64,000 nt of DNA from Octopus sinensis (Eukaryota), in assembly GCF_006345805.1 (NCBI RefSeq), contig NC_043003.1, forward strand, positions 91,450,001 through 91,514,000. The letters are read 5' to 3'. Position 1 is the stretch's first letter; every line of letters begins with the position of its first letter. Position numbers and translations under genes: made by a program. This document shows positions 2,376 to 21,722 of the stretch, in pieces. Below the pieces are notes generated by a model, which was not told the DNA's origin, did not search any database, and saw only the letters and a list, made by a program, of their open reading frames with translations.

Positions 2376-2530
2376 GCGTTTGCCAGAAGCAGTAAGAGGT
2401 GGCCACTTCATTCTGACATGGTAAAGCAGTATGCCTTATGTATTGAAAACAGGCTTGAAAATCTTGGTCTCAAGAATGTTGAACTCTATTTTGATGTTTG
2501 GGTTTCTTTGACGCAACGTTTCCAACAACG
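2376..2530 (+). CDS. GGCX: Vitamin K-dependent gamma-glutamyl carboxylase, internal exon (AFARSSKRWPLHSDMVKQYALCIENRLENLGLKNVELYFDVWVSLTQRFQQR)
   Basis: ttgtag| acceptor and |gtaagt donor; 155 nt, phase 0 to 2; resembles vertebrate GGCX ..RRWKDHADMLKQYATC..IYFDIWVSINDRFQQR. Confidence 0.92.
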
Positions 2531-2625: not shown

Positions 2626-2656
<31 letters not shown>

Positions 2657-2833
2657 AGGGCTTAGTAAAATAAATTACTTTGCCACATACTGAACTCATT
2701 AGAAATAGCAGCTAAAGAAATTTCTTCAGCTATTTCTAATACTTAAAGAAGATCTCTCTCAGATAGTGTTTGCCTAAACTAACTCACAAAAGTATGGGGG
2801 AAAAAACATTAAAAAATCAAGTGCAAAGGTTAT

Positions 2834-2885
2834 TGAGAACGTACGTTTCTAGATTAGTCAATTCGACATTTCTTTCTTCAGCTCA
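2834..2885 (-). ncRNA. Minimal type I hammerhead ribozyme motif, monomer 1
   Basis: Minus strand: tgag-CTGAAGA-aagaaat-gtc-gaatt-gac-taatcta-GAAA-c-gtac-GTT-ctca; stem I tgag/ctca, palindromic stem III, but A-A mismatch at the base of stem II. Confidence 0.7.
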
Positions 2886-3387
2886 GAATTCCTTGAATCG
2901 GATTTTGGAACACTTAAAGTCGGGAGCATACCCTTTCGGCTTCTAATCACCTATAGAATTCTGCTCGAACTAAAAGTGCTATCAAATTCGAATATGCAAG
3001 CGAAGAATTTCTGCTCTCCCCTTTCCACCAGCGTGGGTTAAAATTGACAAACACCAAGTATTAACAGTGAAAACCGCAGAATTTAGCTAAGAGAGATGAA
3101 TTATAATTTCAACAATTGAGGGTAAAATTAATTAATTATTAATCAGTTTCACCAAGTGTTCAGTATGTAAAGGGACCATTATAGGCGAATTCAAAATATT
3201 ACATTATATATAAGGCTTAGTAAAATAAATTACTTGCCACATACTGAACTCATTAGAAATAGCAGCTAAAGAAATTTCTTCAGCTATTTCTAATACTTAA
3301 AGAAGATCTCTCTCAGATAGTGTTTGCCTAAACTAACTCACAAAAGTATGGGGGAAAAAACATTAAAAAATCAAGTGCAAAGGTATT

Positions 3388-3439
3388 TGAGAACGTACGT
3401 TTCTAGATTAGTCAATTCGACATTTCTTTCTTCAGCTCA
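3388..3439 (-). ncRNA. Minimal type I hammerhead ribozyme motif, monomer 2
   Basis: Identical core to 2834-2885. Confidence 0.7.
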
Positions 3440-3940
3440 GAATTCCTTGAATCGGATTTTGGAACACTTAAAGTCGGGAGCATACCCTTTCGGCTTCTAA
3501 TCACCTATAGAATTCTGCTCGAACTAAAAGTGCTATCAAATTCAAATATGCAAGCGAAGAATTTCTGCTCTCCCCTTTCCACCAGCGTGGGTTAAAATTG
3601 ACAAACACCAAGTATTAACAGTGAAAACGCAGAATTTAGCTAAGAGAGATGAATTATAATTTCAACAATTGAGGGTAAAATTAATTAATTATTAATCAGT
3701 TTCACCAAGTGTTCAGTATGTAAAGGGACCATTATAGGCGAATTCAAAATATTACATTATATAAGGGCTTAGTAAAATAAATTACTTTGCCACATACTGA
3801 ACTCATTAGAAATAGCAGCTAAAGAAATTTCTTCAGCTATTTCTAATACTTAAAGAAGATCTCTCTCAGATAGTGTTTGCCTAAACTAACTCACAAAAGT
3901 ATGGGGGAAAAAACATTAAAAAATCAAGTGCAAGGTTATT

Positions 3941-3992
3941 TGAGAACGTACGTTTCTAGATTAGTCAATTCGACATTTCTTTCTTCAGCTCA
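3941..3992 (-). ncRNA. Minimal type I hammerhead ribozyme motif, monomer 3
   Basis: Identical core to 2834-2885. Confidence 0.7.
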
Positions 3993-4493
3993 GAATTCCT
4001 TGAATCGGATTTGGGAACACTTAAAGTCGGGAGCATACCCTTTCGGCTTCTAATCACCTATAGAATTCTGCTCGAACTAAAAGTGCTATCAAATTCGAAT
4101 ATGCAAGCGAAGAATTTCTGCTCTCCCCTTCCACCAGCGTGGGTTAAAATTGACAAACACCAAGTATTAACAGTGAAAACCGCAGAATTTAGCTAAGAGA
4201 GATGAATTATAATTCAACAATTGAGGGTAAAATTAATTAATTATTAATCAGTTCACCAAGTGTTCAGTATGTAAAGGGACCATTATAGGCGAATTCAAAA
4301 TATTACATTATATATAAGGGCTTAGTAAAATAAATTACTTTGCCACATACTGAACTCATTAGAAATAGCAGCTAAAGAAATTTCTTCAGCTATTTCTAAT
4401 ACTTAAAGAAGATCTCTCTCAGATAGTGTTTGCCTAAACTAACTCACAAAAGTATGGGGGAAAAAACATTAAAAAATCAAGTGCAAGGTTATT

Positions 4494-4545
4494 TGAGAAC
4501 GTACGTTTCTAGATTAGTCAATTCGACATTTCTTTCTTCAGCTCA
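4494..4545 (-). ncRNA. Minimal type I hammerhead ribozyme motif, monomer 4
   Basis: Identical core to 2834-2885. Confidence 0.7.
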
Positions 4546-4704
4546 GAATTCTTGAATCGGATTTGGGAACACTTAAAGTCGGGAGCATACCCTTTCGGCT
4601 TCTAATCACCTATAGAATTCTGCTCGAACTAAAAGTGCTATCAAATTCGAATATGCAAGCGAAGAATTTCTGCTCTCCCCTTTCCACCAGCGTGGGTTAG
4701 TGCT

Positions 4705-4958
4705 TTGCTATACTCAAGAAGACCCTTCTGCCACAGCAAACTAGTGCCATATAAAAACACTGGTGCTGGTGCCACATTAAAAGCATGCTGTACACTGTGG
4801 AGTGGTTGGCATTAGGAAGGGCATCCAGCTGTAGAAACCATGCCAGAACAGACAATGGAGCTTGGCGTGACCCCCAACCTTACCAGCTTTGATCAAACCA
4901 GCCAACCCATTCTAGTATGGAAAAATAGAAAACAGGTGTTAAATTATGTTGATGATAT
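4705..4958 (+). mobile_element. RTE 3'-end-derived short element
   Basis: ggagtggttggcattaggaagggcatccagctgtagaaacc..aacccattctagtatggaaaa..gatgat tail. Confidence 0.7.
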
Positions 4959-4971
4959 ATATATATATATA

Positions 4972-5966
4972 TGGTTATCAGTAACAATAAAGGGTGAAAT
5001 TAATTAATTTGGAATAATTATCAATTACACCAAGTAGATTTCGGCATGTAAAAGCCTCATTCGAGGAAAATTTAAGTAATACTAAGCAATTAAGGGTTTA
5101 GCAACGAATTGCCTTACCACATACCGAATTTAGAAATAGCAGTCAAAGAGATATAGCTATTTCTTCTACTAAAAGGGAGATCTCAGTAAAAACACAGCAC
5201 TTGAAAGGCAAACACAGACAGGTAAGAAAGAATGAAATGACGGCAATCTATCATACAATTTTAAGTTACCTACGGACGTACGTTTTCTCACTTTTAGTAG
5301 AAGAAATAGGTATATCTCTTTGACTGCTATTTCTAAATTCGGTATGTGGTACGGCAATTCGTTGCTAAACCCTTAATTGCTTAGTATTACTTAAATTTTC
5401 CTCGAATGAGGCTTTTACATGCCGAAATCTACTTGGTGTAATTGATAATTATTCCAAATTAATTAATTTCACCCTTTATTGTTACTGATAACCATATTTT
5501 ATCCCAGTAAATGACCACAGCATCTTGTCTTGGCTGCACGCGGGTGGAAGGGGGCTGGTGACACAAACTTTCATTCAAACTTTGAATTTCGTGGTACTGG
5601 TAATGCTTTGGCTCGCTCTGACACTGAGTTGAGATAATGCCTTCTAGTATCTCAAAATTTAATATACAATTATTCATAATTGTAGTATCCTACGCCGATG
5701 AGAAAAGAAGTTTGGGTAAGGTAGAATTTTCTAATTCTTATGCTTTCCTAAAACTTGATTTCGAAACGTACGTCCGTAGGTAACTTAAAATTGTATGATA
5801 GATTGCCGTCATTTCATTCTTTCTTACCTGTCTGTGTTTGCCTTTCAAGTGCTGTGTTTTTACTGAGATCTCCCTTTTAGTAGAAGAAATAGCTATATCT
5901 CTTTGACTGCTATTTCTAAATTCGGTATGTGGTAAGGCAATTCGTTGCTAAACCCTTAATTGCTTA

Positions 5967-5968
<2 letters not shown>
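4972..5968 (+). mobile_element. Second hammerhead-bearing element: 1.16 head-to-tail copies of a 583-bp monomer (5291-5968) plus an inverted partial copy (4972-5287), flanked by (TA)n
   Basis: cttttagtagaagaaatag recurs at 5291 and 5874; about 4972-5175 is the reverse complement of about 5291-5495, and about 5085-5285 is the reverse complement of about 5765-5968; collinear similarity to the 553-bp monomer. Confidence 0.9.
5689..5780 (+). ncRNA. Type I hammerhead ribozyme motif with long stem II; predicted cleavage after GUC at 5774
   Basis: cctacg-CCGATGA-gaaa ag aagttt...aaactt ga tttc-GAAA-c-gtac-GTC-cgtagg; 6-bp stem I (cctacg/cgtagg), paired stem II, palindromic stem III; U4 replaced by C. 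Confidence 0.78.

Positions 5969-6004
<36 letters not shown>
5967..6004. repeat. (TA)n microsatellite between the hammerhead element and the RTE
   Basis: Direct reading. Confidence 0.95.
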
Positions 6005-9177: not shown

Positions 9178-9356
9178 GTTATTTGACCCAAATACTGATA
9201 TAATCAAAGCAGATTGGCACCCATTCAAAGATACTCCTTGGATATTACCATTACAAAACCAACTTGCCAACTGGCGAAATACCATGGACAAAATTACCAG
9301 AGAAGTCCATGAGAATAATTCATTGGAAGATGTAACATTTATTCTTGATTTCCCAG
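9178..9356 (+). CDS. GGCX: GGCX exon (LFDPNTDIIKADWHPFKDTPWILPLQNQLANWRNTMDKITREVHENNSLEDVTFILDFPG)
   Basis: tcag| and |gtaagt; 179 nt, phase 2 to 1; resembles human [35 protein letters not shown]. Confidence 0.95.
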
Positions 9357-19204: not shown

Positions 19205-21722
19205 ATTATCATCATCATCATCGTTTAACGTCCGCTTTCCATGCTAGCATGGGTTGGACGATTTGACTGAGGACTGGCGAACTAGATGGCTGCACCAGGC
19301 TCCAATCTGATCTGGCAGAGTTTCTACAGCTGGATGCCCTCCCTAATGCAAACCACTCCAAGAGTGTAGTGGGTGCTTTTATATGCCACCAGCATGAAGG
19401 CCAGTCAGGCGGTACTGGCAACAGCCACACTCATGTGTTGTTTTTTATGTGCCACCTGCACAGGAGCCAGTCCAGTGGCACTGGCAACGACCTCGCTCGA
19501 ATGTTTTTCACGTGCCACCAGCACAAGTGTCAGTAAGGCGACGCTGGTAATGATCACGTTTGAATGTTGCTTTTTACGTGTCACCGGCACAGGAGCCAGT
19601 CAGCTGCTCTGGCAACAATCACGCTTGGATGGTGCTCTTAAGCATGGGTGCCAGTCATTGAATTTGCAATTTTGATTTCACTTCCCTCAACTGGTCTTCG
19701 CAAGCAGAGTTTAGTGTCCAATGAAGGAAAGGTACGCATAAGTGGGATGGTTACACCCCTGGCATAAGCCACGGGTTATGATCTCACTTGGCTTGCCGGG
19801 TCTTCTCAAGCACAGCATATTTCGAAAGGTCTTGGTCACTTGTCATTGCCTTGGTGAAGCCCAATGTTTGAAGGTCGTGCTTCTCCACCTCATCCCAGGT
19901 CTTCCTCTTCCACAGGTTCCCTTAACTGCTAGGGTGTGGCACTTTTTCACACAACTGTCCTCATCCATTTGCAACACATGACCATACCAGTGCAAATGTC
20001 TCTCCTGCACACCACATCTGATGCTTCTTAGGTCTAACTTTTCTCTTAAGGTACTTACACTCAGTCAAGTATGCACACTGACATTACACATCCAGTGGAG
20101 CATACTGGCTTCATTCCTTGCGACCTTATGCATGTCCTCAGCAGTCACAGCCCATATTTCACTGCCATGTAGCATGGCTGTTCGTACATATGCGTCATAC
20201 AGTCAACCTTTTACTCTGAGCGAGAGGCCCTTTGTCACCAGCAGAGGTAAGAGCTCTCTGAACTTTGCCTAGGCTATTCTTATTCTAGCAGCTACACTTT
20301 CAGTGCACCCTCCCCCCGCTACTGATTTGGTCACCTAGATAAAGGAAGCTATCAGCTACTTCTTGTTTTTCTCCCTGGAATGTGGCGGAAGTTGGTCTCA
20401 GAGCATTTTCAGTGTTTATTGCTCCTGAGCATCTGCCACATACAAAAACTATCTTCCCCGTTAGCCTTCCTTTGATATTGCTGCACCTCTTACGTGTCCA
20501 TAGCTTACGCTAGGTACATCTTATAGAGTTTCTACCTACACCTTCTCTACAGATCAAGCAGGGCCATTTACCTGAAGGGATTTGTGGTTTGCCTGCCTTC
20601 CTACTTATTAGGACTTTGGTTTTAGCTAGGTTGACTCTAAGGCTCTTCGATTCTAATCCTTGTTTCCACACCTGAAACTTCTCTAGTTCTGATAGTGAGC
20701 AAGGTTGTCAGCATGGAGGAGCTCCTGGGGACATCTTGTCTTGAATTCCTCTGTTATTGCCTGGAGGACTATGATAAATAGGAAGAGGCTGAGGACTGAA
20801 CCTTGGTGGACCCCTACCTCTACCCAGAATTCTTCACTGTGCCAACTCTTACCTTACTGACAGCATCCCTGTACATGGCTTGCACAGCTCTCACTAACCA
20901 TTCATCTATCCCTAGTTTCTTCATTGAGCACTAGATAAGGGATCGGGAGACCCTGTCAAAGGATTTCTCCATGTCAATGAAAGCCAGATACAGAGTTTAT
21001 GTTTGGCTGGGTATTTCTCCTGCAACTGTCTTACCAGAAATATAGCACCAGTGGTGCTTTTCCCTGGCAATGAACCCAAACTGCATCTCTCCCTAATTAG
21101 TTGGGCTATGACCCTCTCCATAACCTTCATTACGTGATCCAACAACTTGATACCGCTGTAATTATTTGTATCTAAAGTGTCACCTTTACCTTTGTAGCAG
21201 CTATGGTGCTGTTACACCAGTCATTGGGTATGACTCCTTTGTGTATCACCTGGATAACTATACGGGTGACTAGGACATAGCCGACACTACCAGATATTTT
21301 GAGTATCTCTGCAGTAATTCCTGATGGGCCTGGGGCTTTCCCTGTCTTCAAGCTTCTAATTGCCTTATCTACCAAGGAACTGACCAGTTGCTGGTCCTTC
21401 TGTTAGGTCGACATTCGGCAGACTCTCTTTCTCCCATTTATTTTCTTTATTAAGCAACCTTTCATAGTGGCGTCTCCAAACCTCTCTCTTTGCAGCCTTG
21501 TTTAGTGCAAGTGAACCATCATCCATGCGGACACATTTCTCTCCTACAACATCACGATTCTCTCTCACACACTGTCTTGCAACACAAAATACCTCAAGTC
21601 TTTGGTCCTCACGGTGCAGAACATTGGCAAATTTTTTCTTATCTGCTTCTCCTCTGGCTAAATATTTAATTTTAAAACAAACCTTAAAAAAATACATATC
21701 TTCTCAGTTTTGGAGCCTGTGA
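19205..21722 (-). mobile_element. Degenerate 5'-truncated RTE LINE (end of the endonuclease-RT linker, RT and 3' UTR)
   Basis: Minus ORF fragments (CVRENRDVVGEKCVRMDDGSL, KTGKAPGPSGITAEILK, VMKVMERVIAQLIRER) homologous to 6005-8092, with multiple frameshifts. Confidence 0.92.

What the first reader, a model, noticed from the sequence alone, without database searches (positions are those of the whole stretch)
5689..5780. Sense-strand hammerhead inside a GGCX intron
Seen: the best-formed hammerhead in the window (6-bp stem I, paired extended stem II, GUC site at 5772-5774) is on the + strand, within the intron between GGCX exons 2376-2530 and 9178-9356. Its core is CCGAUGA rather than CUGAUGA, and it is a lone copy, so it lacks a tandem partner for dimeric cleavage. 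Known: intronic hammerheads exist in amniote genes. Inference: either an attenuated ribozyme tolerated in a host intron, or a co-transcriptional cleavage site influencing GGCX splicing.
Basis: partly seen in the sequence, partly recalled or inferred. Interest (0 to 1): 0.7.

Follow-up and report, generated by a model that had tools for sequence, protein, structure and literature searches.

The report
Hammerhead carried by young jumping repeat
The hammerhead-shaped sequence in this GGCX intron is real, but it is one of about 500 copies carried by a young mobile repeat, a third of which share its odd core letter, and it is predicted to cut poorly or not at all here, so it is likely a passenger rather than a regulator of the gene.

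Summary
The motif is there as described (type I hammerhead, 5689-5780, core CCGAUGA, site after 5774), on the sense strand of a GGCX intron. It is not a host feature. It lies in a ~585-bp non-coding repeat unit inserted into a (TA)n tract as a forward arm (5286-5970) plus an inverted partial arm (4973-5285), the layout of Penelope-like elements and non-LTR retrozymes. The genome holds 495 exact-pattern copies of the motif; 173 carry the same C4. On a tree of 81 loci C4 needs one change and marks the youngest subfamilies, so it was inherited from a source element that kept transposing; it was not tuned for GGCX. A second, protein-coding Penelope-like family has C4 in 97 of 100 listed copies. 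Stem III is a 2-bp palindrome (dimer type); the active monomer fold is predicted at P~0.001, and the inverted arm is exactly complementary to the ribozyme's 3' half over 207 bases. Cleavage of GGCX pre-mRNA is unlikely but untested. The point of interest is the family: a core change reported to slow cleavage spreads in the newest copies, which suggests transposition needs little cleavage.

The parts
2376..2530 (+). GGCX (vitamin K-dependent carboxylase) exon, upstream of the intron
   Evidence: AG/GT ends, open frame; PF22777 E=2.9e-11
4954..4972 (.). left part of the (TA)n target tract
   Evidence: sequence; family copies end in TA tracts
4973..5285 (-). inverted, 5'-truncated arm of the element; starts inside the hammerhead GAAA, ends at the family's second 3' end ('tail'); 5079-5285 is the exact reverse complement of 5764-5970
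5286..5970 (+). forward arm: last ~100 bp of one unit (5286-5387) plus one whole ~585-bp unit, ending at the family's first 3' end
   Evidence: no open frame over 76 codons
5689..5780 (+). type I hammerhead motif of the Penelope/retrozyme kind
5695..5701 (+). core CCGAUGA; C at 5696 replaces U4 and is a subfamily trait
5766..5773 (+). palindromic stem III region (ACGUACGU): 2 bp as a monomer, 8 bp in the predicted homodimer
   Evidence: predicted
5772..5774 (+). GUC triplet; predicted cut between 5774 and 5775
   Evidence: sequence; position follows from the hammerhead consensus (inferred, no cleavage data)
5968..6004 (.). right part of the (TA)n target tract
9178..9356 (+). next GGCX exon

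Best explanation
The motif is the hammerhead of a young, non-coding repeat family that sits in (TA)n tracts, likely a non-autonomous Penelope-like element (non-LTR retrozyme), and this copy is likely a recent passenger insertion that is predicted to cleave GGCX pre-mRNA little or not at all. Shown: the repeat unit, its copy number, its two fixed 3' ends at TA tracts, tandem and inverted arms, no ORF, and C4 shared by the youngest subfamilies. Inferred: a Penelope-like RT/GIY-YIG protein supplied in trans nicked the TA tract and reverse-transcribed the RNA from two start sites, giving the two outward-facing 3' ends. Predicted: the monomer rarely reaches the active fold, U4C slows the chemistry, no cis partner exists for a dimer, and the inverted arm pairs with the cleavage site once the whole insertion is transcribed. 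Because C4 subfamilies kept spreading, strong cleavage is likely not needed for transposition.
For: 40 other full-length matches at 96-98% among 40 scored of 2480 candidates. 322 U4 and 173 C4 complete motifs, controls 0. In 86 loci, 39 have both orientations; of 123 outward 3' ends 66 fall at end 1 and 42 at end 2, and 105 of these 108 abut TA, as described for PLEs (PMC8557442 passages; PMC11167929). Tree of 81 of 86 loci: C/T needs 1 change, 32 of 33 C rows form one branch (97/92); C4 groups differ 0.25-1.0% from their majority, U4 groups 1.2-3.7%. Active monomer fold P=0.0008; dimer -56.4 vs 2 x -24.8 kcal/mol. Whole insertion folds with a 208-bp helix over the site, 7.5 kcal/mol below the fold keeping stem I. 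U4C 'considerably decreases activity in vitro' in a viroid; single PLE min-HHRs showed no cleavage; HHR mutants do not impair PLE insertion in vitro (PMC3088659, PMC4209133, PMC11167929). About 44% of Xenopus tropicalis retrozyme copies overlap introns (10.64898/2026.07.22.740005).
Against: No cleavage or transcript-end data: only contigs were available. No autonomous partner was found: no pLTR similarity in 40 GIY-YIG loci and no linked PLE ORF in 121 family loci beyond apparent chance neighbours, so the link to PLEs rests on anatomy. Sequestration is not complete in time: stem I stays formed (P>=0.93) for nascent ends 5790-5950 and is lost only at 5970, and the rival fold could be kinetically trapped. 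The structure is still kept in C4 copies (a compensatory A-U to G-C pair in stem II arose inside the C4 branch) and the viroid U4C variant stays infective, so C4 may be active enough in vivo. Without the hammerhead columns the tree needs 2 changes. Loci were picked by best hit and by allele, not at random.
Confidence: 0.8

Rival explanations
1. The copy is a passenger, but C4 hammerheads are adequately active in vivo as dimers or with protein help, so a fraction of GGCX pre-mRNA is cut in trans-dimers with family transcripts before the inverted arm pairs.
For: Homodimer fold is about 7 kcal/mol better than two monomers; stems I and proximal II are preserved with compensatory change, also inside the C4 branch; stem I persists over ~160 nt of elongation; the anole PLE hammerhead cleaves only with protein (PMC11167929); the viroid U4C variant is infective (PMC3088659 passage).
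Against: Needs a second RNA to meet a nascent intron within seconds; PLE hammerheads are slow even as dimers (PMC4209133); no RNA-seq ends at the site were found for the anole element (PMC11167929).
Confidence: 0.12
2. The hammerhead is a co-opted co-transcriptional cleavage site that regulates GGCX splicing, like the amniote RECK and C10orf118 intronic hammerheads.
For: Sense orientation in an intron; well-paired stems I and II.
Against: The copy belongs to a subfamily about 1% diverged, has near-identical copies at unrelated loci, carries the family's allele rather than a private one, has a 2-bp stem III and comes with its own antisense arm.
Confidence: 0.03
3. The insertion affects GGCX, if at all, through long double-stranded RNA (editing, slower splicing), not through catalysis.
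For: Both predicted folds contain helices of 145-208 bp; heavy A-to-I editing in cephalopods is recalled, and the organism is only inferred.
Against: No read-level data; inverted arms are the rule in this family (39 of 86 loci), so this is not special to GGCX. Compatible with the best explanation.
Confidence: 0.05

Closest known systems
Non-LTR retrozymes of animals (Cervera and de la Pena 2020, PMC7229834; Li et al. 2026, 10.64898/2026.07.22.740005)
   Same: Non-coding unit with one type I hammerhead, AT-rich, found as monomers, dimers and multimers, often in introns, in a genome rich in PLEs.
   Different: Unit ~585 bp (within the 51-972 bp range of the 2026 preprint, longer than the ~300 bp of the 2020 paper); stem II is ~60 nt with no clear loop 1-loop 2 contact; a third of copies carry U4C; circular RNA and cleavage not shown here.
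[quoted passage not shown] 2021, PMC8557442; Frangieh et al. 2024, PMC11167929)
   Same: Small palindromic helix III, enlarged helix II, G10.1-C11.1 pair, partial tandems, inverted 5'-truncated arm, two 3' ends (tail), (TA)n targets.
   Different: No RT/GIY-YIG ORF; tail ~105-112 bp rather than 30-40 bp; no bulged base before stem II; parent element not found.
Conserved amniote intronic hammerheads RECK and C10orf118 (PMC3088659 passages)
   Same: Type I hammerhead on the sense strand of an intron; these too may stem from repeats.
   Different: They are single, old, conserved and cleave robustly in vitro; this one is a young multi-copy insertion with a variant core.
Viroid U4C hammerhead variant (Ambros and Flores 1998, seen only as cited in PMC3088659)
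   Same: Same core change.
   Different: There one variant of an RNA replicon; here a state shared by whole expanding genomic subfamilies.

Membership tests
Type I hammerhead ribozyme | Three helices around the core, open end in stem I | tested here: met
   (stem I 99% of cells paired in 49 distinct rows; stem III only 2 bp and fixed by the search anchor)
Type I hammerhead ribozyme | Core CUGANGA / GAAA / NUH | tested here: not met
   U4 is C in this copy; all other core bases match; 322 of 495 family copies have U4
Type I hammerhead ribozyme | Match to an Rfam hammerhead model | tested here: not met
   no hammerhead family among 54 matches at E<=1
Type I hammerhead ribozyme | Self-cleavage at the NUH site | not testable with these tools
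   only contigs available
Non-LTR retrozyme | Tandem non-coding units, each with a type I hammerhead | tested here: met
   arrays at ~582-588 bp period, up to 13 hammerhead-bearing units in L090; no frame over 67 codons in an array
Non-LTR retrozyme | At least two consecutive complete units at this locus ('active' by the 2026 preprint) | tested here: not met
   one complete motif in the window insertion; it is a monomer member of the family
Non-LTR retrozyme | Expressed as monomeric linear and circular RNA | not testable with these tools
   no holder on record as RNA
Penelope-like element | ORF with RT and GIY-YIG endonuclease | tested here: not met
   none in the unit or linked to it in 121 loci: non-autonomous at best
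Penelope-like element | Partial tandems, inverted 5'-truncated arm, optional tail, microsatellite targets | tested here: met
Penelope-like element | Sequence shared with the pLTR of an autonomous element | tested here: inconclusive
   none in 40 loci out of 5029 GIY-YIG candidates
Co-opted intronic hammerhead (RECK/C10orf118 kind) | Single locus, conserved across species | tested here: not met
   hundreds of near-identical dispersed copies, ~1% subfamily divergence; presence at the orthologous site in other individuals was not determined

The most novel reading that the evidence does not exclude
U4C is not decay but a favoured dampening of the ribozyme: slower cleavage leaves longer multimeric RNAs that are copied as longer arrays, each a new source, so C4 subfamilies replace U4 ones. 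It arose independently in this retrozyme and in an autonomous Penelope-like family of the same genome (C in 97 of 100 listed copies). The genome would then hold a natural U4/C4 series for the open question of what PLE hammerheads are for.
Probability: 0.15. Interest if true: 0.6.

Novelty: new member of a known kind. Interest (0 to 1): 0.27.

Why it matters
For GGCX it probably does not matter. For retroelement biology, the role of hammerheads in Penelope-like elements is described as unknown in the papers read. A family in which a core change reported to slow cleavage marks the newest, still spreading subfamilies is in-genome evidence that little cleavage is needed, and gives matched natural U4 and C4 alleles to assay. 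Five literature searches turned up no description of this family or of U4C in PLE hammerheads; that library lacks most subscription papers, Lunse et al. 2017 was not held, and no supplements were read, so prior report cannot be excluded.

Tried and rejected
Rfam scan: no hammerhead model matched. Private mutation or assembly error at 5696: rejected, 173 copies share it and public contigs show both letters. Search for an autonomous parent: 40 GIY-YIG loci compared with the unit, 121 family loci compared with two PLE proteins; only apparent chance neighbours. Expression: no RNA holder listed; contigs of three runs guessed to be RNA and one of unknown kind cover the unit with both alleles, but cannot show strand, ends, level or locus, so they are not used as evidence. 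Presence/absence of the insertion in other individuals: no result obtained, left open. A third C4 motif (L065) has 1 exact copy and says nothing. Recombination as the source of the stem II change in the long-array C4 group: not favoured, because that group lacks most other diagnostic letters of the U4 group with the same change; not formally tested. The link between C4 and longer arrays (12 of 44 vs 4 of 68 loci with same-strand tandem motifs on C1-C13, Fisher p=0.002) is kept only as a lead: loci are related, one locus counts in both sets, all 4 loci with 3 or more tandem motifs are in the G-stem C4 group, and U4 arrays of 3-5 units exist that this count missed. Earlier scan notes: none held. 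Papers not held: Lunse 2017, Ambros and Flores 1998, de la Pena 2010.

Full report
Observation. The window shows a type I hammerhead layout at 5689-5780 on the + strand: stem I CCTACG/CGTAGG, core CCGATGA (5695-5701), a ~60-nt stem II, GAAA (5763-5766), the palindrome CGTACG and the GUC triplet at 5772-5774. The flanking exons have canonical ends, join in frame and match consecutive parts of the vitamin K-dependent carboxylase lumenal domain. A strict descriptor finds this one hit and none in 100 of 100 shuffles; the descriptor was written with the motif in view. No Rfam hammerhead model matched, and the lowest-energy fold lacks stem III. The genome has 2.72 Gb; that it is an octopus is my inference from memory and was not checked.

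Surroundings. The motif sits in an insertion between two TA tracts (4954-4972 and 5968-6004). The forward arm runs 5286-5970 (a ~100-bp unit end plus one whole unit); the inverted arm runs 5285 to 4973 on the - strand, and 5079-5285 is the exact reverse complement of 5764-5970. The unit has no long open frame. A search with 5480-5960 gave 40 other full-length matches at 96-98% identity among 40 scored of 2480 candidates. Across 86 family loci (30 best hits less 4 overlaps, 20 picked for C4, 20 for U4, 20 older U4), 39 have arms in both orientations; of 123 outward-facing 3' ends, 66 stop at window-equivalent 5955-5967 and 42 about 105-112 bases further, and 105 of these 108 abut TA. The window copy has one end of each kind. 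Partial tandems, an inverted truncated arm, an optional tail and (TA)n targets are described for Penelope-like elements (PMC8557442, passages), and the tail has been tied to two reverse-transcription start sites (PMC11167929, parts 1-2 of 4). The genome is rich in PLE endonuclease matches (5029 candidates, 147 matches among 150 scored) and holds 775- and 781-codon RT plus GIY-YIG frames, but none was linked to this family.

The C4 letter. Exact-pattern counts give 322 complete motifs with U4 and 173 with C4; tighter 18-mers give 113 and 169. On a tree of 81 loci (5 of 86 dropped as too short) the state needs one change; 32 of 33 C rows form one branch (97/92) nested among U4 rows under a midpoint root; without the hammerhead columns it needs two. 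Median distance to the group majority is 1.0%, 0.5% and 0.25% for the three successive C4 groups and 1.2-3.7% for the U4 groups. So C4 arose in a source element, which then gave dozens of dispersed insertions and further subfamilies. The window copy belongs to the first C4 group. The fold is still kept: stem I is paired in 99% of cells, and the stem II pair 5704-5760 changes on both sides in 13 of 49 distinct rows, in three separate branches, one inside the C4 branch; relatedness inflates these counts. An unrelated family with a 775-codon PLE frame and a 4.26-kb tandem period carries a hammerhead-like motif with C4 in 97 of the first 100 of 324 listed copies; its stem II junction is imperfect, so that motif is less certain.

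How it most likely works. Inferred: a PLE protein in trans nicked the TA tract and copied the RNA from two start sites, leaving two outward-facing 3' ends. Predicted: as a monomer the active fold has P=0.0008; a dimer through the palindrome is about 7 kcal/mol more stable than two monomers, but no second complete copy lies in cis. Single PLE minimal hammerheads gave no cleavage in vitro and dimers little (PMC4209133, parts 1-2 of 4; PMC6765202, passages). U4C is reported to lower activity considerably while leaving a viroid infective (PMC3088659, passage citing a paper I could not read). In the full intron context the inverted arm pairs with the GAAA, stem III, the site and the 3' strand of stem I in a 208-bp helix, 7.5 kcal/mol below the fold that keeps stem I. 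This is not immediate: stem I survives until the 3' end reaches about 5970, pseudoknots are not modelled, and the other fold may be trapped. Hammerhead mutants did not impair insertion by an anole PLE in vitro (PMC11167929), which fits the spread of C4. I put 0.8 on a passenger with little or no cleavage, 0.12 on low-level cleavage through trans-dimers or protein help, 0.05 on an effect through double-stranded RNA, and 0.03 on co-opted regulation of GGCX.

Comparison and novelty. It works like, and by anatomy files with, non-LTR retrozymes derived from PLE pseudo-LTRs (PMC7229834 and PMC7761336, passages; 10.64898/2026.07.22.740005, parts 1-3 of 5, which reports about 44% of X. tropicalis copies in introns and cleavage in 1 of 9 tested dimers). 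This locus is a monomer and fails the canonical-core test; cleavage, circular RNA and the parent element are not shown. It is not of the conserved RECK/C10orf118 kind. Searches found no account of this family or of U4C in PLE hammerheads; supplements and subscription papers were not seen. The bolder reading, that C4 is favoured because slower cleavage gives longer arrays, rests on 12 of 44 C4 loci against 4 of 68 U4 loci with same-strand tandem motifs, a non-independent count that missed U4 arrays of 3-5 units; I give it 0.15.

Verdict. Observation confirmed; interpretation partly supported; new member of a known kind; interest 0.27, almost all of it for the family-level C4 pattern rather than for GGCX.

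Noticed in passing
window ~2640-4700, - strand: A second retrozyme-like array in the same GGCX intron: four hammerhead motifs at 553-bp spacing (core CUGAAGA, same CGUACG palindrome, GUU site, weak stem II), antisense to the gene; about 70% like the first family in the 3' part of the unit.
   Followed up: partly
L068 (G000:C8:18815000-18824000) and L133: Penelope-like family with a 775-codon RT + GIY-YIG frame and 4.26-kb tandem period whose 3' region has a hammerhead-like motif with C4 in 97 of 100 listed of 324 copies.
   Followed up: partly
L061-L065, L069, L070 (e.g. G000:C1:207472500-207481500): Young Penelope-like family with a 781-codon frame, in two loci preceded by a 479-codon frame, ending in (TA)n; its 3' region has a hammerhead-like motif that appears to carry the U3-A8 core pair (read by eye; the predicted fold did not show it).
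   Followed up: partly
window 6005-~7600, + strand: 5'-truncated LINE with reverse-transcriptase frames (PF00078) abutting the same TA tract as the retrozyme; further copies near 20000-21700 and 43400-44100.
   Followed up: no
L063, L064, L068, L070: Several other type I hammerhead motifs with long stem II and 6-base palindromes (CATATG, CAATTG, CATGTG, CTCGAG) near TA tracts: many more retrozyme families likely exist in this genome.
   Followed up: no
window 45243-46013 and 26447-26788, - strand: Frames that look like tektin exons (name recalled, not checked by a call).
   Followed up: no
window 27500-30100, + strand: Broken frames resembling a Gypsy-type gag/pol with integrase (recalled resemblance, not checked).
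   Followed up: no
G000:C2:156353592-156354270: A tandem pair in which one unit has U4 and the neighbour C4, a hint of reversion at the CpG that C4 creates or of mixed templates.
   Followed up: no
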